Positions 1-22,235 of a stretch of DNA of 45,080 bases are shown here, in pieces. The DNA is from a virus. The translations under genes were made by a program, and so were the position numbers. Every line of letters starts with the position of its first letter. Within the stretch, counting starts at the first letter, position 1. The DNA lies in the IMG/VR virus record IMGVR_UViG_3300033052_000026, positions 1 to 45,080 of that record; one strand, 5' to 3'. The notes beneath the pieces are model-generated. The model did no database searches. It was not told the DNA's origin and saw only the letters and a program-made list of their open reading frames with translations.

Positions 1-147
1 ATCGCCCAGATACAGCGTGCAATCGCCGATCCGCTCCATGCGCTTCCACGGGCGCCCTTCCCAATCGTGGGTATCGCCGCGCTGGCGCTTGGCCTCAATC
101 GCCGCGTCATAGCTCTTGCGGGCGTCGTCGGCAGGGTCGTAGCTCAT
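1..147 (-). CDS. First 49 codons of the beta-class DNA methyltransferase, a duplicate copy created by the terminal overlap
   Basis: Reverse-strand ATG at 145-147. Sequence is identical to 44842-44988 (MSYDPADDARKSYDAAIEAKRQRGD...). Confidence 0.8.
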   Translation of the reverse strand, partial: MSYDPADDARKSYDAAIEAKRQRGDTHDWEGRPWKRMERIGDCTLYLGD

Positions 148-239
148 GAATAATCCCCCAACACCCGATGCAGGGTTGCCCTGCCACGGCTTATGCGTGA
201 CTTGATGGTGCCGATTGGAACACCGTGCCGAGCGGCCAT
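1..239. repeat. Terminal direct repeat, left copy (identical to 44842-45080)
   Basis: Base-by-base comparison of both window ends; all 239 nt are identical. Confidence 0.95.
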
Positions 240-626
240 GTCTTCGAGCGTGACCCCATTAACCGATGCCCAAAGGACCTCGCGCTGGTCCTCGACCAGA
301 TCGTCCAGATGAGACAGCGCATCCTTGGCTTCCAGCGAGGCGGCCTGATCCTCCTTCGCGGGCAGATGCATCGTCAAAATGCCGTCGCTGTCGGCGATGA
401 GACGGCCGGCTTTTCGACCCTGCGAACAAAAGAGATTGCGCAATATGACGAACAGCCACGCCCGGAGGTTTGTCCCGGCCGCGAACCGATGCTCGTTTTC
501 AAGCGCCCGACAGATGGTTTCCTGCACGAGGTCCTCGGCGTCGTCCTTTCGCCGCACGAGGCGCATGGCGAACTGAATGAGCGAACGCCGCTCGGCTACG
601 AGGAGATTGGCGAAGGCGGCTGTCAT
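144..626 (-). CDS. ECF-type sigma-70 family RNA polymerase sigma factor (160 aa)
   Basis: Region 2-like DAEDLVQETICRAL...LRAWLFVILRNLF and region 4 HTH LEDMAARHGVPIGTIKSRISRGRATL. The in-frame ATG at 626 lies 1 nt after the upstream stop. Its stop overlaps the methyltransferase ATG (ATGA at 144-147). Confidence 0.85.
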   Translation of the reverse strand: MTAAFANLLVAERRSLIQFAMRLVRRKDDAEDLVQETICRALENEHRFAAGTNLRAWLFVILRNLFCSQGRKAGRLIADSDGILTMHLPAKEDQAASLEAKDALSHLDDLVEDQREVLWASVNGVTLEDMAARHGVPIGTIKSRISRGRATLHRVLGDYS

Positions 627-627
627 G

Positions 628-801
628 TCACAGCCCTGCCATCGCCAGCACAAGCCACAGCGCCGCGAAGATGGCCGCCCACGCCGCCAGGCAGGCGATC
701 ACGATGACCAGAGCCCAGCCGCGAAACCGGCGGCGGTCGTCAGCGCATTCGCCGGAGCAGCAGCATTCCGGCCAGTAGATGCAGGTTTCGGGAACGCTCA
801 T
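628..801 (-). CDS. 57-aa Cys-rich single-pass membrane micro-protein
   Basis: Below the ORF-track cutoff. Hand translation: MSVPETCIYWPECCCSGECADDRRRFRGWALVIVIACLAAWAAIFAALWLVLAMAGL. The ATG at 799-801 overlaps the stop of 798-1199, and the stop at 628-630 abuts the sigma ATG. Confidence 0.5.
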   Translation of the reverse strand: MSVPETCIYWPECCCSGECADDRRRFRGWALVIVIACLAAWAAIFAALWLVLAMAGL

Positions 802-16704: not shown

Positions 16705-16866
16705 CTATTTGTTGAGGATCTTGCTGAGGATTTGGACGATCAGCCACGCGCAGCCGAGGATCGGCAGGAGCAGCGCGGCCAGTTGGGAGATGTCCGCCAG
16801 CGACGGCATCCACCAGGGGCTGACAACAGCCCCAGCAGCAATGGTATTCGTCATTTTCTCCATCAT
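16705..16866 (-). CDS. 53-aa membrane protein, holin-like
   Basis: Hand translation: MMEKMTNTIAAGAVVSPWWMPSLADISQLAALLLPILGCAWLIVQILSKILNK. The ATG overlaps the o-spanin stop. Confidence 0.5.
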   Translation of the reverse strand: MMEKMTNTIAAGAVVSPWWMPSLADISQLAALLLPILGCAWLIVQILSKILNK

Positions 16867-17048
16867 GGGCGCCAGCGGCAGAGAGCCGCTCCCTTCTGGT
16901 TGTGGGAGAGGATTTCTGCCACTTGGGCGTCTGTCAGTTGGTCGACTTGCTCGGGCATGAGCCTGATTGGCCGGGATATGTCACAGAACGACCCTCGGGC
17001 CGTGGTGCAGCCGGCGAGCAGGAGGGCGAGGATCAGTGCTTTGCCCAT
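16863..17048 (-). CDS. o-spanin-like outer-membrane lipoprotein
   Basis: Lipobox LLAGC. Overlaps the end of the i-spanin gene by 16 nt. Confidence 0.65.
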   Translation of the reverse strand: MGKALILALLLAGCTTARGSFCDISRPIRLMPEQVDQLTDAQVAEILSHNQKGAALCRWRP

Positions 17049-18135: not shown

Positions 18136-19422
18136 TCAGGCCTTGGCAGGCTCCAAGGCGGTAATTCTCGCCTCGTGGTCCTTGAGCTTCAGCCACATGG
18201 CGTTGCAGACAATGGCCAGCATTTCCATGGCCAGCCACTTGCGGGAGAACATCTCCCCCATGCAGAGACCATTGTGCTCCCAGTCCAACTGTGTCGGCAT
18301 GCCCGGCAGTGCCTCATCAGCCCGCATCTTGGCGAAATACTGCTCAGGGTCGCGAGGATCGAAGCCGGCATCACACATCGCCTTGAAGATGCGCGCCGTT
18401 CGATGGATGCGCGAGACGGTTTGCGCTGGCGTCACCACTTCTTCCACGACCGGATGTTCGACCACATCAATGCCGTTGCCAAACTCGTCCCATACGGGCT
18501 CAAGGTCAATTTTCTGCACCCGCTCAGTGACGATTACCGTTCGACGGACAAGGCCGTCTTCTGTCTGCTCGTCAATGGTGCGCTTGACCTGCTTTTCGAT
18601 CATCACAGGGATGGTTTCTCTGACCTCTGGGATGATCAGGTCGGGCACCATGGCGTCCCATTTTTCGAGATCGATACCTCCCTTGGTGCGGAACTCTTCG
18701 GCCATCGCCATACAGGTCAGTAGAACGTTGTCGTCGTAGACGGCGCCGAAGTTGATGGTGTTGTTACCCTTGTCGCCACCTGTGGCCGAGGCATGATAAA
18801 TGCCCCCCCCGACTTGCATACGATTCGCAAGAGTGCCCGCCTGAAAGGTGGCAAACCTGTAATCAGCGGTTTCCGCGCCGTTGGCATCTTGGATGCAAAC
18901 GACCGTCATCTCTCCAAAAGCTTGATTGTTTGCGGCATCGTCCGTTCCTCGGAAAACGATGCGTCCAACAACGGCATTATCGCCGTGTGCGTCGGCTCTC
19001 CGAACCTGTATGTCGCCAAAAGTTCCTGTAGCCTGGACCGTCAATGCACCACCACTGAACGTCGGCGAAGTGTCCAGTAGCGGCACTGTGCTGCCAGATG
19101 TGCCCGTGTTCTGGGTTGCTGCGGTGCCAAGCCCGAGTGTTGTCCTCTGGGCGGCTGCATTCGCATCATCCACCAGCGCCCTGCCGGCCGATGTGAATGT
19201 CGCCAGCGCTGCTGTACCGGAACCGGTGAAATATGGGAGGCTGTCGGCGGCAGAAGTCAGCCCAGCAATCGCGGTCAATTCCGCGTCCAGCGGCTGGAAC
19301 CCAAACGCATTGCCAATCTCGACAGCCGGCACGCCATAGACCTGATTGCCGATCACGATGGCAAGGCTGGTCTGGGTCAAGTCGCTAGGCGCCCTGACGC
19401 GGGGGATGTTCGGTTGCTGCAT
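18136..19422 (-). CDS. Tail fibre protein A
   Basis: N-terminal fibre repeat (LTAIAGLTSAADSLPYFTGSG..LGLGTAA). Shares the ..GTL..R..GG.Y...ATGGD.G..IN module with 21270-22235. Confidence 0.75.
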   Translation of the reverse strand: MQQPNIPRVRAPSDLTQTSLAIVIGNQVYGVPAVEIGNAFGFQPLDAELTAIAGLTSAADSLPYFTGSGTAALATFTSAGRALVDDANAAAQRTTLGLGTAATQNTGTSGSTVPLLDTSPTFSGGALTVQATGTFGDIQVRRADAHGDNAVVGRIVFRGTDDAANNQAFGEMTVVCIQDANGAETADYRFATFQAGTLANRMQVGGGIYHASATGGDKGNNTINFGAVYDDNVLLTCMAMAEEFRTKGGIDLEKWDAMVPDLIIPEVRETIPVMIEKQVKRTIDEQTEDGLVRRTVIVTERVQKIDLEPVWDEFGNGIDVVEHPVVEEVVTPAQTVSRIHRTARIFKAMCDAGFDPRDPEQYFAKMRADEALPGMPTQLDWEHNGLCMGEMFSRKWLAMEMLAIVCNAMWLKLKDHEARITALEPAKA

Positions 19423-19464
19423 TAGGGATACCTGCAAGTAGATCGCCGCAGGCTAGCTGCGCGC

Positions 19465-19668
19465 TCAGTCCGATTTATCGTGAGGTAGCTCGCGGCGCTC
19501 AAGTTCGCGCTCAAGGGCTTCGCGGATGAACTCGGCGCGCTTGTTTTTGCCGACAATGGCGTCAATCCGATCCGGCATGTCTTCCGGCAGTCGGACGAGT
19601 ACTGGCTTCACGTTGAGTGGCGGACGTCCCATTCGGTTGGGACTAACTGATGCCGATGTATTGGTCAA
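19465..19668 (-). CDS. Ribbon-helix-helix (CopG/Arc/Mnt-like) regulator
   Basis: GRPPLNVKPVLVRLPEDMPDRIDAIVGKNKRAEFIREALERELERRE. Confidence 0.75.
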   Translation of the reverse strand: MTNTSASVSPNRMGRPPLNVKPVLVRLPEDMPDRIDAIVGKNKRAEFIREALERELERRELPHDKSD

Positions 19669-19683
19669 ACCTTCACCATAAAC

Positions 19684-19721
19684 GATATCGCTTATTGACG
19701 TTTGTTCTTATAAGCGATATC
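19684..19721. promoter_or_regulatory. Perfect 12-bp inverted repeat GATATCGCTTAT-N14-ATAAGCGATATC (operator candidate)
   Basis: Lies between the divergent RHH gene and + strand ORF 19758. The spacer starts with TTGACG. Confidence 0.6.
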
Positions 19722-19757
19722 ACTTATGTCTTCGATTGTCCAGATTGGAGACACCAC

Positions 19758-19949
19758 ATGTCCCGCCTCTTGCTAGCTACCCCGCTCCTTTTCATGCCTA
19801 CATTGGTTTTGAGCAACTGCGTGGCGCCGCACGCTCCCGTGACGCAATCGGCACACCTCAGCGAGCGCGATTCTTCGCCGCGTAGCCGGCCAGACACTCC
19901 AAAGAGCAGCGGCGCGCCCACTGAAGACGATGGGTCGGCTCCGTGGTGA
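19758..19949 (+). CDS. Small exported protein, possible lipoprotein (63 aa)
   Basis: SD GGAGA lies 7 nt before the ATG. N-terminus MSRLLLATPLLFMPTLVLSNC (non-canonical N at position -1). Confidence 0.5.
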   Translation: MSRLLLATPLLFMPTLVLSNCVAPHAPVTQSAHLSERDSSPRSRPDTPKSSGAPTEDDGSAPW

Positions 19950-20009
19950 GCCGCGAGTAGCTCAGCGGGTCTAATTGAAAGAGTCTAGGCTAACTGATAC
20001 ATTTCTGTA

Positions 20010-20366
20010 ATGAAACAGGCGCTTGTTATCGGGGTGCTTTTTGCTGCTTGCGTAGGCGCGCAGGCTGGCGAGGAAATCAAGCCAGAATGGAACCCTCCGG
20101 CCCGGTATGATCACCCCTTTAACGGCGCGGTTGATGTTCAGTATCTGCCACAGCCCCAAGTCATCATCGAATGTGCCAAGTTGTTTAAAGATCACAAGAT
20201 CAAGGATACGGCGGCCTACACCCAGCGCGGTTGCTCGGCCGTCACGAATCCCAATACTTGCAAGATGTTCATCGTAGACAGCCCTTATCGTGGGGCTACG
20301 CCGGAGGCGATAAAGCGCCACGAAATTGGACACTGCAACGGCTGGCCCGCCAATCATCCAGACTGA
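20010..20366 (+). CDS. Secreted 118-aa protein with a C-terminal HExxH motif (HEIGHCNGW)
   Basis: Signal peptide MKQALVIGVLFAACVGAQA. 4 Cys in the mature part. AT-rich region. No clear SD. Confidence 0.55.
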   Translation: MKQALVIGVLFAACVGAQAGEEIKPEWNPPARYDHPFNGAVDVQYLPQPQVIIECAKLFKDHKIKDTAAYTQRGCSAVTNPNTCKMFIVDSPYRGATPEAIKRHEIGHCNGWPANHPD

Positions 20367-20382
20367 AATAGGGAGAACCCGA

Positions 20383-20595
20383 ATGCGCATGCTTCCCTTG
20401 GTTTGTCTGTCTTCCCTGCTTTCAGGGTGTATGGTCTGGCCCAAGCCGGTCGATGAAGTTCAGGTTCGGCAGCCAATTGTTGTAGCCCCCAAGCCCGTTG
20501 TTGCGAAGAAAGCTGCGCCAGTTGTTCGCAAGCCCGTTATTACACAGATGCCTGCCAGCGAACGAGGCGAAGGCGGCGGTGGCTGGGATCAGTGA
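20383..20595 (+). CDS. Lipoprotein (70 aa), Pro/Val/Lys-rich mature part
   Basis: SD GGGAGAA. Canonical lipobox LLSGC. Confidence 0.6.
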   Translation: MRMLPLVCLSSLLSGCMVWPKPVDEVQVRQPIVVAPKPVVAKKAAPVVRKPVITQMPASERGEGGGGWDQ

Positions 20596-20598
20596 TCG

Positions 20599-21270
20599 TC
20601 AAGACCGCGAGAATGACGCGACAACGGCAACATTGACGCCGTTTTCCGACGTAGCAGTCCATGGAGATACAGAAACGGCGCGGGCGGTTTCAGCCAACAT
20701 ACCTATATCCCAACCAACCGTGCGCCGCTTGCCGGCGCTATCTGTCGAGTCGCTCCCTCTCTCCGTAACGCCGGCCCAAGAGAGTTCACTCGCCACGCCG
20801 CGCGATGCGAATCCTAGCAACAGGCCACTTTGGGGAATATTTAGGGACATCGGCATGGGGTCAATTAAATCATTCGAAAAATCGGTAGCGTGGGCGCTCC
20901 CGCAATTGTAGCCAGAGACACGCAAAACGATGATGCTTGTGGCAAGCCCAGCCCAAGAAACGGCTACCGTTCCAGATATTCCTGAGGGCTGGGCCACAAA
21001 CATGGCAGACCCAATTGCAGTTCCCGAGCCGGTGCCGATGGAGCGTGCGACTGTGCGGGTGGCGGCTATACCGCCAATCGTTGCCGTGGGGGAGTGGCCA
21101 GGATTAGATGCCGTGTTACCATGGGTTGCCAATACAACGACCCAACTGTCTAGCCATGAGTCACCGAAGCTAACTGTCGCGTGACTGGTTGCAGCCGTCG
21201 TGCGGTTGTCTGTTACCTCCACTGGTTCGCGAGCCCAAGAGGCTGTCGGCGGCATCCAGAACACAGCCAT
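20599..21270 (-). CDS. Hypothetical fibre-associated protein (223 aa)
   Basis: The ATG overlaps the stop of fibre B. More AT-rich. Confidence 0.6.
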   Translation of the reverse strand: MAVFWMPPTASWAREPVEVTDNRTTAATSHATVSFGDSWLDSWVVVLATHGNTASNPGHSPTATIGGIAATRTVARSIGTGSGTAIGSAMFVAQPSGISGTVAVSWAGLATSIIVLRVSGYNCGSAHATDFSNDLIDPMPMSLNIPQSGLLLGFASRGVASELSWAGVTERGSDSTDSAGKRRTVGWDIGMLAETARAVSVSPWTATSENGVNVAVVASFSRS

Positions 21271-22235
21271 TACTGCATAGCCTGAATAGAGAGCAACGAG
21301 CCAGCATCACCGACCGAGCAGGAACAGCGGAACTTGTGCCCGTTGGTCGTCGTGAAGACGCTGCCGGACACCTTTGTCCATCCCGAGGTCGTGATTGTGC
21401 CCGCCGAGCCGTTGTTGGTGATGTCAAGGGTGTAGAACCCATTGTTCGAGCCGGGGGCCAAGGTGTGCGCACCACCGTTGGTGTAATGCTGCATAGGGCG
21501 GTCGCCAGGATCGGGTGTAACGGTGCCCGTGGTGATCGTGCCAAGCGACAGGGAAGTGATGCGTGCGCCGCCAGTAATTACTTGGTCGGCAACATCGTTT
21601 CCGAACTCGACGCCTGCCTTCTGGAAGCCAGTGGCGTTGATCTTCCCGGCGCCTGGATCCCCTCCGGTAGCGCCCTCCATATAGAAGCCGGCGGCTATAT
21701 GGGCGCGGAAGGACAGGGTGCCAGACCGGATGGTGATAAAGCGCAGAGTGGCGCTTTCGGCGGTATCTGTCGGGCTGTTCAGAACAGTATCGATTGTCGC
21801 ATATCGCGTGTCGTTGCCCCCAGAATCCCGTGCCCGCCAGTTGATCATGCTGAGGTTGTCGGACACGGCAGGTGACGCCGAGTCGCGGAAAAGAACGAGA
21901 TCTGGCCCCGAGCCCGCACCCGCCTCCGTGCTGGTGACAGTGAGCAACGTGCCCGCAGACGTGCTCGTGATGGTCATGGCGTTGGTATCGGCAATGGTCA
22001 CGCCCGATGTCTGGAGCGCGCCGGCAACACCGTCAAAACGGGGCACAGTGTTATCGACAGACACGCCCACCGTGAGCGTAACCGTGGTCGAGAACGTCTT
22101 GATCTGCGCCATCATCTCGCGGACAATGTTGTCGACTTGCGACGGTGTCGTAACAGCGCCGTCAATGGGGATTGAGTTGATGTCCGTGTTGTTCGCTGCA
22201 ACAGTATCCCAATCGGAAACCTGTAATTTAGCCAT
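21270..22235 (-). CDS. Tail fibre protein B
   Basis: N-terminus DWDTVAANNTDINSIPIDGAVTTPSQVDNIVREMMAQIK. Paralogous module to fibre A. Confidence 0.75.
   Translation of the reverse strand: MAKLQVSDWDTVAANNTDINSIPIDGAVTTPSQVDNIVREMMAQIKTFSTTVTLTVGVSVDNTVPRFDGVAGALQTSGVTIADTNAMTITSTSAGTLLTVTSTEAGAGSGPDLVLFRDSASPAVSDNLSMINWRARDSGGNDTRYATIDTVLNSPTDTAESATLRFITIRSGTLSFRAHIAAGFYMEGATGGDPGAGKINATGFQKAGVEFGNDVADQVITGGARITSLSLGTITTGTVTPDPGDRPMQHYTNGGAHTLAPGSNNGFYTLDITNNGSAGTITTSGWTKVSGSVFTTTNGHKFRCSCSVGDAGSLLSIQAMQ

What the first reader, a model, noticed from the sequence alone, without database searches (positions are those of the whole stretch)
19465..20598. AT-rich cassette between the two tail-fibre genes: RHH regulator, perfect operator dyad and three exported proteins on the opposite strand
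A visibly AT-richer ~1.1-kb segment interrupts the leftward late operon. It holds a CopG/Arc/Mnt-type RHH gene (19465-19668, leftward). Next comes a perfect 12-bp inverted repeat, GATATCGCTTAT-N14-ATAAGCGATATC (19684-19721), which overlaps a TTGACG -35-like box. Three rightward ORFs follow. The first is a 63-aa exported or lipoprotein-like peptide. The second is a 118-aa signal-peptide protein ending in HEIGHCNGW (an HExxH metallopeptidase-like motif). The third is a 70-aa canonical lipoprotein (LLSGC). The layout recalls the P22 immI region, where RHH repressors Mnt and Arc sit at divergent promoters beside the tailspike gene. The cargo here is different. Phage lipoproteins encoded next to receptor-binding genes (T5 Llp, Cor of phi80/N15) block the phage's own receptor. 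Here two lipoprotein-like genes sit between two paralogous fibres. This suggests a regulated receptor-masking or superinfection-exclusion module, possibly with a small secreted protease, of a kind I do not recognise.
Basis: partly seen in the sequence, partly recalled or inferred. Interest (0 to 1): 0.65.

Follow-up and report, generated by a model that had tools for sequence, protein, structure and literature searches.

The report
Two accessory modules between phage fibre genes
The cassette is real but is two unrelated accessory pieces joined together in a temperate phage: an old, widely conserved gene for a small exported metal-binding protein of unknown function with a partner lipoprotein, and a recently inserted self-regulating repressor gene carrying the broken-off start of another gene.

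Summary

1. ORF2 (20010-20366) belongs to a large unannotated family. It has an Sec signal peptide, a confidently modelled zincin-like core, and invariant HExxH..H and four Cys. In about 35 related phage contigs it sits in the same place: on the opposite strand, converging on the last fibre-module gene, often right next to the endolysin. In ten distinct relatives a sigma-70-type promoter ends 6 nt before the ATG, so the mRNA is probably leaderless.

2. ORF3 (20383-20595) is a canonical lipoprotein. It was found only next to ORF2 homologues.

3. About 510 bp (19453-19954), holding the RHH gene, the dyad and ORF1, is missing from the closest ORF2-ORF3 relative. The same piece occurs at about 87% identity in another contig, where "ORF1" is the first 54 residues of a 316-aa gene. 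ORF1 is therefore a truncated stump.

4. The "dyad" is two tandem 18-bp palindromes. They are conserved upstream of about 20 RHH homologues, and their cores co-vary with the RHH beta-strand. They are the repressor's own operators.

The receptor-masking idea is untested, and ORF2 does not co-vary with the neighbouring fibre gene. The function of ORF2 is unknown.

The parts
19465..19668 (-). RHH (YlcI/YnfO-like, CopG/Arc/MetJ superfamily) repressor gene, 67 aa. It starts at TTG 19668, preceded by GAAGG. The predicted beta-strand is KPVLVRLP.
   Evidence: The N-terminal 12 residues are conserved in homologues, which supports the TTG start. dN/dS is 0.30 against L067.
19678..19695 (.). Operator O1 (proximal to the RHH gene): the 18-bp near-palindrome ATAAACGATATCGCTTAT.
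   Evidence: It is identical in L067. Equivalent sites lie upstream of about 20 RHH homologues, and their cores co-vary with the protein.
19710..19727 (.). Operator O2 (distal): ATAAGCGATATCACTTAT, 32 bp from O1. It lies between the proposed -35 and -10 of the leftward RHH promoter and overlaps the -10 of the rightward promoter.
19707..19735 (-). Proposed autoregulated RHH promoter: TCGAAG-17 nt-TATAAG on the - strand. This is a weak consensus match.
   Evidence: Read from the sequence. It is positionally equivalent to TTGAAG-N17-TATAC flanking the distal operator in relatives L045, L047, L043, L048, L051 and L062. The consensus scan did not call it.
19695..19723 (+). Proposed rightward promoter: TTGACG-17 nt-TATCAC. 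Its -35 abuts O1 and its -10 lies inside O2. It would drive ORF1 and read through into ORF2-ORF3.
   Evidence: The -35 is TTGACA in L067. CGCTTATTGAC next to the proximal operator recurs in most RHH loci. The consensus scan did not call it.
19758..19949 (+). ORF1, 63 aa. It is a truncated 5' remnant of a gene for a 316-aa exported protein: a signal peptide plus a disordered stretch. 'LSNC' is not a canonical lipobox. A good SD (GGAGA) lies at 19748-19752.
   Evidence: Residues 1-54 are 76-79% identical to the N-terminus of the 316-aa ORF in L067. No family hits.
19436..19452 (.). Left copy of an imperfect direct repeat (AAGTAGATCGCCGCAGG) at the left edge of the ~510-bp block.
   Evidence: Comparison with the uninterrupted junction in L066 and a direct reading.
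19955..19969 (.). Right copy of the imperfect direct repeat (GAGTAGCTCAGCGGG) at the right edge of the ~510-bp block.
19975..20003 (+). ORF2's own sigma-70-type promoter, TTGAAA-17 nt-TACATT. It ends 6 nt before the ATG and there is no SD, so the mRNA is predicted to be leaderless.
   Evidence: It was the only promoter-like hit of the scan. The same element, TTGnnn-N17-(C/T)A(T/C)ATT-N6-ATG, is fixed in position in L066, L010, L014, L012, L009, L026, L025, L002 and L011.
20010..20366 (+). ORF2, 118 aa. It has a Sec signal peptide (cleavage predicted at AQA|GEE) and a core of about 95 aa with invariant PP..Y.HP, four Cys, and RHExGHCNGWxxxH at the C-terminus. This is the conserved heart of the cassette.
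   Evidence: Synteny. dN/dS is 0.17.
20383..20595 (+). ORF3, 70 aa. It is a canonical lipoprotein (LLSGC; the +2 residue is Met, so probably outer membrane) with a Pro/Lys/Val-rich linker and an acidic/Gly tail containing Trp. Its SD, AGGGAGA, lies at 20370-20376.
   Evidence: It is 67-71% identical to the ORF downstream of ORF2 in L066. Every relative found lies beside an ORF2 homologue.
20599..21270 (-). Context: p223, the last gene of the fibre module, converging on the cassette (3 nt from the ORF3 stop). It is an all-beta protein with no signal peptide.
   Evidence: Its homologues converge on ORF2 homologues, often with a 4-bp overlap.
18136..19437 (-). Context: the second tail-fibre gene, directly downstream of the RHH gene. 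Its real start is probably ATG 19422.
   Evidence: PHROG tail-fibre hits. 76% identical to the Aminobacter prophage fibre.

Best explanation
The 1.1-kb segment is a mosaic of two independent accessory ('moron'-type) modules. They sit at the junction between the fibre module and the second fibre/lysis module of a temperate P22-like phage of Phyllobacteriaceae (Aminobacter/Mesorhizobium group).

Module A, old and syntenic: ORF2 plus ORF3.
- ORF2 is transcribed against the late operon from its own sigma-70-type promoter, as a leaderless mRNA. It therefore most likely depends on host RNA polymerase and is expressed from the prophage (inferred).
- ORF2 is exported by Sec and folds into a minimal zincin-like domain: beta, backing helix, two beta strands, then an HExxH helix. 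I infer that H104, H108 and H116 hold a metal ion and E105 acts as the general base.
- ORF3 is an outer-membrane lipoprotein found only beside ORF2. I infer that it is ORF2's anchor or partner.
- My committed guess is that the pair modifies an envelope or periplasmic target of the lysogen. The target would be generic, not specific to the fibre's receptor, for example exclusion of superinfecting phage at the envelope-crossing step. The function is not shown.

Module B, recent, about 510 bp: the RHH gene, its two 18-bp palindromic operators and the 5' stump of a divergent gene.
- One RHH dimer reads the centre of each palindrome with its beta-ribbon. The two dimers sit three helical turns apart.
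- Together they shut the RHH gene's own leftward promoter (O2 lies between its -35 and -10) and the overlapping rightward promoter.
- In this phage the only downstream effect of that repression is to gate read-through from the stump ORF1 into ORF2-ORF3, on top of ORF2's own promoter.
For: The window is a temperate phage:
- It encodes an integrase, a cI-like HTH+S24 repressor, portal, capsid and ejection proteins, and a complete lysis cassette with its own spanin.
- Close relatives are integrated in Aminobacter genomes.

Module A:
- There are 28 close ORF2 homologues, and 1888 family clusters at E<=1e-3.
- E105, H108, G111, W112, C55 and C75 are invariant. H104, C84, C109 and H116 are nearly invariant.
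- The AF2 model has pLDDT 86, above 90 in the core, with the order beta1, helix, beta2, beta3, HExxH helix.
- In about 35 phage loci the gene is on the opposite strand and converges on the p223 homologue. In L009, L011, L012 and L026 it lies directly beside the endolysin.
- The promoter TTGnnn-N17-cAtATT-N6-ATG is fixed in position in ten loci whose ORF2 proteins are only 41-64% identical.
- ORF3-type lipoproteins were found only adjacent to ORF2 homologues. They lie upstream of ORF2 in L001, L006/L024, L007 and L018/20/22, and downstream in the window and L066.
- dN/dS is 0.16-0.17.
- GC content and GC3 are lower than in the core genes.

Module B:
- L066 has fibre | ORF2 -> ORF3 | p229 with no RHH gene and no ORF1, and its junction sequence bridges the two window flanks.
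- L067 carries the same block at 87-89% nucleotide identity. Both operators are conserved while the spacer between them has diverged, and the ORF1 homologue continues to 316 aa.
- About 20 RHH loci carry paired palindromes within about 70 bp upstream of the gene.
- The beta-strand and the operator core change together: KP(V/I)LVRLP goes with CGATATCG, KETKVRLT with CGGGGACG, K(P/A)TMVRLT with CG(A/G)TTGCG, and RSTNVRIT with CGGCACCG. The invariant MGRPPLNV goes with the invariant TAAGCG/CGCTTA arms.
- The operator occurs nowhere else in the phage.
- RHH homologues sit in varied contexts.
Against: - There are no expression data. Prophage expression is inferred only from the type of promoter.
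- The rightward and leftward RHH-region promoters are weak consensus matches, and the scan did not call them. No terminator was found.
- ORF2 matches no known peptidase family by sequence or by fold. Model coordinates could not be inspected, so the metal-site geometry is unverified.
- The protein ends two residues after the third His. That is unusual for a catalytic zincin.
- The four Cys are also kept in chromosomal homologues that lack a signal peptide. They may be metal ligands rather than disulfides, and the domain may bind metal without being a hydrolase.
- 'Insertion' cannot be separated from recombination between an L066-like and an L067-like phage. The flanking direct repeat is imperfect.
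- The biological role, exclusion or anything else, is a guess.
Confidence: 0.6

Rival explanations
1. The cassette is one RHH-regulated receptor-masking or superinfection-exclusion module. Like T5 Llp or Cor, its lipoproteins and a small protease block or destroy the receptor recognised by the adjacent fibre.
For: - ORF2 and ORF3 are exported or lipid-anchored and encoded against the late operon, immediately next to fibre-module genes.
- The ORF2-p223 pair stays together even in a Mesorhizobium island that has no head or tail genes.
- T5 llp lies next to the receptor-binding protein gene, and Llp blocks FhuA (PMC9586334; the gene layout is from my own knowledge).
Against: - The RHH block is separable from ORF2-ORF3, and ORF2 has its own promoter.
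- ORF2 identity does not follow p223 identity. In L066 the values are 64% and 31%; in L010, 48% and 56%; in L006 and L002, 52% and 41% for ORF2 with no detectable p223 similarity.
- Most ORF2-carrying phages have no lipoprotein partner.
- The family is common in chromosomes outside prophages, and some copies lack a signal peptide.
- No match to PHROG or PADLOC exclusion or defence families.
- A periplasmic soluble protein cannot mask a surface epitope directly.
Confidence: 0.2
2. ORF2, with or without ORF3, is a lysis or cell-wall accessory. It would be a periplasmic metallopeptidase that cuts peptidoglycan or the links between outer-membrane lipoproteins and peptidoglycan, helping the neighbouring endolysin/spanin cassette or DNA entry.
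For: - In L009, L011, L012 and L026 ORF2 lies directly beside the endolysin.
- In L008 it follows a GH108 endolysin and a lipoprotein on the same strand.
- ORF3 scores weakly against an Rz-like spanin family (E=0.088) and is Pro-rich, like o-spanins.
Against: - ORF2 is on the opposite strand to the lysis genes in nearly all loci and has a housekeeping-type promoter.
- The phage already has an endolysin, holin-like genes and a clear Rz-like o-spanin.
- Known phage cell-wall metallopeptidases use LAS/M15/M23 motifs, not HExxH (my own knowledge).
- The spanin hit is not significant.
Confidence: 0.12
3. ORF2-ORF3 is a Bor/Lom-style lysogenic-conversion moron. It would benefit the host through envelope stress, metal handling or symbiosis, with no role in phage-phage interactions.
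For: - It has moron anatomy and lower GC.
- The family is widespread in alphaproteobacterial chromosomes in ordinary metabolic neighbourhoods.
- One homologue has a Tat-type signal, which is typical of cofactor-loaded proteins.
- In E. coli DLP12, ylcI (the family that names this RHH) lies in the same kind of zone, beside the lipoprotein moron borD.
Against: - The position is strikingly fixed against the fibre-tip gene in about 35 phages.
- The pair persists in a small integrative island. This suggests a phage-related role rather than random cargo.
- No phenotype data exist.
Confidence: 0.2
4. The inverted repeat acts as an RNA hairpin (terminator, attenuator or processing site) rather than as a protein-binding operator.
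For: The 92-nt intergenic RNA folds at -28.7 kcal/mol, z = -6.3 against shuffles. A second stem (19727-19753) covers ORF1's SD.
Against: - Any two copies of a palindrome will form such a stem.
- There is no T-tract, and no terminator was called.
- Spacing between the two sites varies from 22 to 32 bp across relatives, while each 18-bp palindrome is kept.
- The palindrome cores co-vary with the RHH beta-strand, which an RNA structure would not require.
- With the proposed start sites, neither local transcript contains both arms (inferred).
Confidence: 0.05

Closest known systems
Lambdoid morons: lambda bor (opposite-strand lipoprotein gene beside Rz/Rz1) and lom (in the tail-fibre region). DLP12 borD-ybcV-ybcW-ylcI zone.
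   Same: - Small, independently promoted genes for exported or lipoproteins, set against or between late genes at the lysis/tail-fibre boundary.
- Lower GC than the surrounding genes.
- A YlcI/YnfO-type small gene lies nearby in DLP12.
- Expected to be expressed in the lysogen.
   Different: - No sequence relationship to Bor or Lom.
- The main product is a soluble periplasmic HExxH protein.
- No terminator is present.
- The position is conserved across many phages rather than sporadic.
T5 Llp / phi80-N15 Cor superinfection-exclusion lipoproteins
   Same: - A small outer-membrane lipoprotein gene (ORF3) lies next to fibre or receptor-binding genes.
- It is transcribed independently of them.
   Different: - No homology.
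- ORF3 is present in only a minority of ORF2-carrying phages.
- ORF2 is not a lipoprotein.
- There is no co-variation with the neighbouring fibre gene.
- Receptor binding is untested.
P22 immI (Mnt and Arc RHH repressors at divergent overlapping promoters Pant/Pmnt, next to the tailspike gene)
   Same: - An RHH repressor.
- Two operators in a short region (89 bp) that holds overlapping divergent promoters.
- Located beside a fibre gene of a P22-like phage.
   Different: - A single RHH gene of the YlcI/YnfO-like lineage.
- No antirepressor.
- The divergent gene is a truncated exported-protein gene.
- The module is a mobile ~0.5-kb block found in many contexts.
Arc/MetJ/CopG-type operator recognition
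   Same: - Beta-ribbon residues are predicted to read bases.
- Tandem sites lie on the same face of the helix (32 bp apart).
- Autoregulation.
- Protein and operator co-vary across the family.
   Different: - Each site is an 18-bp palindrome with invariant outer arms (TAAGCG/CGCTTA) and a variable 4-6-bp core.
- Stoichiometry and contacts have not been determined.
Minimal zincins (metzincins such as snapalysin; minigluzincins; SprT/WLM-like domains)
   Same: - An HExxH motif on a helix packed against a small beta-sheet with a backing helix.
- A Gly three residues after the second His, as in metzincins.
- A downstream His as a candidate third ligand.
- Weak, non-significant BFVD fold hits to SprT, WLM and IrrE proteins.
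   Different: - The third His is 8 residues, not 6, after the second.
- The protein ends 2 residues later, so there is no Met-turn and no C-terminal subdomain or Glu helix.
- Four conserved Cys and a conserved N-terminal PPxxYxHPY segment.
- No significant sequence or fold match.

Membership tests
Ribbon-helix-helix (CopG/Arc/MetJ) superfamily | A domain of about 45 aa with beta-alpha-alpha order that is recognisable by profile. | tested here: met
   Profile scores are marginal: Pfam RHH_1 E=1.3e-3 (19 bits against a cutoff of 20.5) and several PHROG repressor families. However, 37 homologues were found. Sources name several of them CopG/Arc/MetJ regulators, and one carries PF01402.
Ribbon-helix-helix (CopG/Arc/MetJ) superfamily | Binds repeated or palindromic operators at its own promoter (autoregulation). 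| tested here: met
   Met by comparison only. Paired 18-bp palindromes lie upstream of about 20 homologues, and their cores co-vary with the beta-strand. Physical binding cannot be tested here.
YlcI/YnfO family (NCBIfam NF041551) | Score at or above the curated cutoff for the N-terminal domain model. | tested here: inconclusive
   28.3 bits against a cutoff of 30, E=1.4e-6. A protein 82% identical is named a YlcI/YnfO family protein by NCBI. Against E. coli YlcI the match is only 29% over 48 aa, E=2e-4.
P22 immI region | Two RHH repressors (Mnt, Arc) controlling an antirepressor gene. | tested here: not met
   There is one RHH gene. The divergent gene is a 63-aa stump of an exported protein. 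No antirepressor family hit was found in the cassette.
Bacterial lipoprotein (ORF3) | An n-region and h-region followed by the lipobox [LVI][ASTVI][GAS]C. | tested here: met
   The sequence is MRMLPLVCLSSLLSGC. The motif is conserved as L(S/A)GC in all relatives. Acylation itself cannot be tested here.
Bacterial lipoprotein (ORF1) | A canonical lipobox. | tested here: not met
   The sequence is VLSNC, and Asn at -1 is outside the consensus. The same LSNC occurs in the 316-aa L067 protein.
Llp/Cor-type exclusion lipoproteins | Homology to Llp or Cor, or demonstrated binding to the phage's receptor. | tested here: not met
   No PHROG, Pfam or PADLOC hit. Receptor binding cannot be tested with these tools.
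Metzincin metallopeptidases | HExxHxxGxxH followed by a Met-turn and a C-terminal subdomain. | tested here: not met
   The motif is HEIGHCNGWPANH, with the third His at +8. The protein ends 2 residues after it.
Gluzincins / minigluzincins | HExxH plus a Glu ligand on a downstream helix. | tested here: not met
   There is no sequence after the motif that could form a Glu helix.
Zincin-like fold (general) | An HExxH helix packed on a mixed beta-sheet with a backing helix, and a bound metal. | tested here: inconclusive
   The secondary-structure order of the confident AF2 model fits. Foldseek found no significant PDB or BFVD match. Metal binding cannot be tested here.
Moron (Hendrix-type independent transcription unit in a late operon) | Its own promoter, a position between late genes, and atypical base composition. 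| tested here: met
   A promoter conserved in position. The segment lies between the fibre genes on the opposite strand. Its GC is the lowest in the genome.
Moron (Hendrix-type independent transcription unit in a late operon) | Its own terminator, and expression from the prophage. | tested here: not met
   No terminator-like site was found. Expression cannot be tested here.

The most novel reading that the evidence does not exclude
The ORF2 family would be a previously undescribed class of minimal secreted zinc hydrolase. Its core is about 95 aa, with HExxHxxGxxxxH at the extreme C-terminus and no C-terminal subdomain, which would make it smaller than any characterised zincin. Temperate alphaproteobacterial podophages would have captured it from host chromosomes and fixed it beside their fibre-tip gene. 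In some lineages it would act with a dedicated outer-membrane lipoprotein adaptor (ORF3), as a periplasmic exclusion enzyme that disables incoming phage or removes an envelope component needed for entry.
Probability: 0.15. Interest if true: 0.75.

Novelty: new variant of a known kind. Interest (0 to 1): 0.45.

Why it matters
**An uncharacterised family.** The work singles out a large family: at least 1888 clusters at 50% identity, found in more than 145 species' genomes, nearly all Alphaproteobacteria. It is absent from Pfam, PHROGs, NCBIfam, PADLOC and the PDB. Its members are small proteins with an HExxH motif and four Cys. The family has a confident fold model and a very stable position in one group of temperate phages, which makes it a concrete target for experiments on prophage-encoded envelope functions in rhizobia and their relatives.

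**A specificity table for the repressor.** The RHH operator data already pair beta-strand variants with operator-core variants. Gel shifts could test that table directly, and it could be used to build orthogonal repressor-operator pairs.

**A caution for genome reading.** The mosaic shows that a cassette which looks like one regulated unit can be two unrelated pieces plus a gene stump.

Tried and rejected
**Searches that found nothing**
- Pfam, PHROGs, NCBIfam and PADLOC scans of ORF1-3 gave no usable hits. A Pfam scan of 56 family members found only two chance hits.
- PDB sequence searches with ORF2 alone and with a family profile gave nothing below E=0.1. A weak match to the MelC1 N-terminus (E=0.25) was rejected as chance.
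- Foldseek searches of the ORF2 model against PDB and BFVD, and of the p223 model against PDB, gave no meaningful match, with TM-scores of 0.5 or less.
- No GenBank phage carries an ORF2 homologue, and none shares the region at DNA level beyond the endolysin.
- The 316-aa parent of ORF1 has no Pfam, PDB, IMG/VR or metagenome relatives. Its beta-helix appearance is only my impression by eye.
- No Rfam family and no tRNA gene occur in the window.
- A literature search on YlcI/YnfO found nothing functional.

**Ideas considered and rejected**
- ORF1 as a paralogue of ORF3: the only resemblance is the signal peptide and a low-complexity tail.
- ORF3 as the phage's o-spanin: a proper Rz-like spanin exists at 16863-17048.
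- The RHH gene as the antitoxin of a toxin-antitoxin pair: no co-directional toxin gene is present, and the neighbouring genes vary between loci.

**Limit**


Full report
**1. The observation**

The stated features are all present.
- A 67-aa leftward ORF lies at 19465-19668.
- A perfect 12-bp inverted repeat lies at 19684-19721, and TTGACG at 19695-19700.
- Three rightward ORFs follow: ORF1 (19758-19949, 63 aa), ORF2 (20010-20366, 118 aa, ending RHEIGHCNGWPANHPD) and ORF3 (20383-20595, 70 aa, LLSGC).

The segment has 55.5% GC against 61.3% for the window. It is the lowest-GC stretch of its size, in the bottom 0.6% of windows, but the dip is only about 2.4 SD.

The repeat is better described as two tandem copies of an 18-bp near-palindrome: ATAAACGATATCGCTTAT at 19678-19695 and ATAAGCGATATCACTTAT at 19710-19727. 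They are 32 bp apart. At up to 3 mismatches there is no other copy in the 45 kb, and none is expected by chance.

**2. Setting**

The window is a complete temperate, P22-like phage genome.
- It encodes an integrase, a cI-like HTH+S24 repressor, ERF and YqaJ recombination proteins, methylases and an ECF sigma factor.
- It encodes terminase, portal, scaffold, capsid and ejection proteins.
- Its lysis cassette has a GH108 endolysin and a clear Rz-like o-spanin.

No cultured phage in GenBank resembles it beyond the endolysin. Its nearest relatives are a prophage in Aminobacter sp. MDW-2 and metagenomic contigs.

Leftward, the late genes run p576 (lysozyme-domain ejection protein), p321 (fibre), p223, then the cassette, then fibre433, endolysin, holin-like genes and spanins. 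The two fibres share only a 70-aa segment (36% identity, E=7e-10). p223 is a confidently modelled all-beta protein (pLDDT 88.5) with no signal peptide and no significant structural relative.

**3. ORF2 is the conserved core**

*Family.* ORF2 has 28 close homologues from Mesorhizobium, Aminobacter and metagenomes. A profile search of 1.84 billion representatives found 1888 clusters at E<=1e-3 and 529 at E<=1e-10, mostly 100-130 aa. A genome scan found 145 hits in species-representative genomes, nearly all Alphaproteobacteria.

*Conserved residues.* Across a 56-sequence alignment, P30, C55, C75, E105, H108, G111 and W112 are invariant. H104, C84, C109, N110 and H116 are nearly invariant.

*Fold.* The AlphaFold model is confident (pLDDT 86, above 90 in the core). 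Its order is strand 40-46, helix 48-61, strands 74-80 and 83-89, then helix 98-109 carrying HExxH. That is the layout of a zincin N-terminal subdomain: sheet, backing helix, active-site helix.

*No known relatives.* Nothing significant was found in the PDB or BFVD by fold, in the PDB by sequence or profile, or in Pfam, PHROGs, NCBIfam or PADLOC.

*Motif.* The motif HExxHxxGxxxxH sits at the very C-terminus. It fails the defining features of metzincins (spacing, Met-turn) and of gluzincins (Glu helix). 'Metalloprotease' therefore remains an inference.

**4. Synteny of ORF2**

In 34 IMG/VR contigs and several other loci the ORF2 homologue is on the strand opposite the structural genes. It converges on the homologue of p223, often with a 4-bp stop-stop overlap. 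In the simpler relatives L009, L011, L012 and L026 it lies directly beside the endolysin gene.

The pair p223-like + ORF2 also ends a small Mesorhizobium muleiense island that has an integrase and AlpA but no visible head or tail genes.

The more distant family members, in Xanthobacteraceae MAGs, sit in ordinary metabolic neighbourhoods with no recurrent neighbour. Many of them begin right at the conserved LEPPxxYxHPY and have no signal peptide. One Labrenzia copy has a Tat-type RRDFL signal. The phages therefore appear to carry an exported version of a host-wide small domain.

**5. ORF2 has its own promoter**

The only sigma-70-like hit in the region is TTGAAA-17-TACATT at 19975-20003. It ends 6 nt before the ATG, and there is no Shine-Dalgarno sequence. 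By count, one hit is no more than the shuffles give (0.7 expected).

The support is comparative. An ungapped alignment anchored on the start codon shows TTGnnn-N17-(C/T)A(T/C)ATT-N6-ATG in the window and in L066, L010, L014, L012, L009, L026, L025, L002 and L011. The ORF2 proteins in these loci are only 41-64% identical.

This implies a leaderless mRNA made by host RNA polymerase. I read that as expression independent of the late programme, most likely from the prophage (inferred).

**6. ORF3 is ORF2's occasional partner**

ORF3 belongs to a small lipoprotein family: MRMLALTCIPIIGLSGC, then a Pro/Lys/Val-rich linker, then SER, then an acidic/Gly tail containing Trp.
- Every member found lies next to an ORF2 homologue on the same strand.
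- It lies immediately upstream, overlapping the ORF2 start, in L001, L006/L024, L007 and L018/L020/L022.
- It lies downstream in the window and in L066.

Most ORF2-carrying phages have no such gene. dN/dS against L066 is 0.17 for ORF2 and 0.16 for ORF3.

**7. The RHH-operator-ORF1 piece is a separate block**

*Absent from L066.* L066 carries the closest ORF2 (64% identity) and the closest ORF3 (67%). Its order is fibre | ORF2 -> ORF3 | p229, with no RHH gene and no ORF1. Its short intergenic sequence bridges what are two separate flanks in the window. An imperfect 15-17-bp direct repeat marks the two edges, at 19436-19452 and 19955-19969.

*Present in L067.* L067 carries window 19413-19918 at 87-89% nucleotide identity. 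That stretch includes the RHH gene (85% amino-acid identity) and both operators. O1 is identical, O2 has one change, and 5 of the 14 spacer bases differ. It also includes the ORF1 homologue, which there continues to 316 aa.

ORF1 is therefore the 5' stump of a larger exported-protein gene. Its low dN/dS (0.19) may simply reflect selection on the intact gene. The 316-aa protein has no detectable relatives.

I cannot tell insertion apart from recombination between L066-like and L067-like phages.

**8. The dyad is the RHH family's own operator pair**

The RHH protein has 37 homologues, named YlcI/YnfO family or CopG/Arc/MetJ regulators. It has 21 IMG/VR loci and two further metagenome loci. The surrounding genes vary between these loci; some sit beside integrases or HTH repressors.

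Within about 70 bp upstream of nearly every homologue lie two palindromes of the form TAAGCG-core-CGCTTA, 22-32 bp apart. The core co-varies with the predicted beta-strand:

| Beta-strand | Operator core |
|---|---|
| KP(V/I)LVRLP | CGATATCG |
| KETKVRLT | CGGGGACG / CGTCCCCG |
| K(P/A)TMVRLT | CG(A/G)TTGCG |
| RSTNVRIT | CGGCACCG |

The invariant MGRPPLNV segment goes with the invariant outer arms. This is the pattern expected if the beta-ribbon reads the core. It is good comparative evidence for binding, though not a physical test.

Two promoters are proposed.
- A leftward promoter, TCGAAG-17-TATAAG, brackets O2. It corresponds to TTGAAG-N17-TATAC in relatives.
- A rightward promoter is TTGACG-17-TATCAC. 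Its -35 is TTGACA in L067, and its -10 lies inside O2.

Both are weak matches that the scan did not call, so the promoter assignments are inferred.

An RNA-hairpin role for the repeat is less likely. The spacing between sites varies while each palindrome is kept, and the cores track the protein.

**9. What it most likely does**

*Shown.*
- The segment is a mosaic.
- ORF2 and ORF3 are conserved as coding sequence and fixed in position.
- The RHH family's operators are conserved and co-vary with the protein.

*Inferred.*
- ORF2 is exported and binds a metal through H104, H108 and H116.
- ORF3 anchors or partners ORF2 at the outer membrane.
- ORF2 and ORF3 are expressed in lysogens.
- The RHH protein represses its own promoter and the rightward promoter. 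In this phage that only adds a repressible read-through input into ORF2-ORF3.

It is weakened on four counts.
- ORF2 identity does not follow p223 identity. In L066 the values are 64% and 31%; in L010, 48% and 56%; several loci show no detectable p223 similarity.
- Most relatives lack the lipoprotein.
- The family is common outside phages.
- ORF2 is a soluble periplasmic protein.

I favour a generic envelope or periplasmic target, for example exclusion at the entry step, over receptor-specific masking. A host-benefit role or a lysis-accessory role remain live alternatives.

**10. Comparison and novelty**

As anatomy, this is a moron zone like lambda bor/lom and the DLP12 rzoD-borD-ybcV-ybcW-ylcI stretch, plus an Arc/Mnt-style autoregulated RHH switch. 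It is not an immI region: there is no antirepressor and only one RHH gene.

The new elements are three:
- the uncharacterised ORF2 family and its fixed place in these phages;
- its dedicated lipoprotein neighbour;
- the clean correspondence between RHH beta-strand and operator core.

I rate it a new variant of a known kind and of moderate interest (0.45).

Noticed in passing
window 144-653 (-): The phage encodes its own ECF-type sigma factor (Sigma70_r2 plus r4_2). ORF2's promoter is of the housekeeping type, not the ECF type.
   Followed up: no
L004 10001-18339 and L005 (Mesorhizobium muleiense): An integrative island of about 8 kb carries an integrase, AlpA and a primase-like gene, with no head or tail genes seen. 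It ends with a p223-like gene converging (4-bp overlap) on an ORF2 homologue. The pair therefore travels together outside complete phages, possibly in a satellite.
   Followed up: partly
window 21270-21593 (p321 residues 214-321); L155-L164: The C-terminal 108 aa of p321 recur at 58-86% identity in otherwise unrelated viral contigs that lack p223 and ORF2. This is a shuffled fibre-tip domain.
   Followed up: partly
L084-L147 (Xanthobacteraceae and other alphaproteobacterial MAGs): Chromosomal ORF2-family genes of 85-108 aa begin directly at LEPPxxYxHPY, with no signal peptide, and sit among metabolic genes. One Labrenzia copy (L104) has a Tat-like RRDFL signal. All keep the four Cys, so the Cys may be metal ligands rather than disulfides.
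   Followed up: partly
window 20599-21270 (-): Most p223 homologues are 252-261 aa, with an N-terminal extension of about 35 aa that the window ORF lacks. The window gene starts exactly at the p321 stop. Its N-terminus may be lost, or supplied in some other way.
   Followed up: no
window 19727-19753: A second 11-bp stem (with G-U pairs) could sequester ORF1's Shine-Dalgarno sequence (GGAGA, 19748-19752). It is only partly maintained in L067.
   Followed up: partly
window 19420-19437: The fibre433 ORF is listed from TTG 19437. Comparison with L066 and L067 suggests the real start is ATG 19422 (MQQPNIP...).
   Followed up: partly
L153 (E. coli K-12 DLP12, NC_000913.3 578600-580445): ylcI, the family that names this RHH, is an opposite-strand small gene. 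It lies in the moron zone between the lysis genes/borD and nohD.
   Followed up: partly
L001 11741-12360; L002 9555-9776; L006 14469-14708: Related phages carry further small opposite-strand genes inside the ejection-protein part of the late operon. These are possible additional morons.
   Followed up: no
L168 1516-1695 and 2866-3057: One metagenome contig carries two RHH paralogues of this family, 50% and 41% identical to the window protein. A GATATC-core operator pair lies beside one of them.
   Followed up: no
P0031: A 2635-aa protein matches the ORF2 profile in 40 separate stretches, all to profile positions of about 77-107. It may be a repeat protein built from the HExxH-proximal segment, or an assembly artefact.
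   Followed up: no
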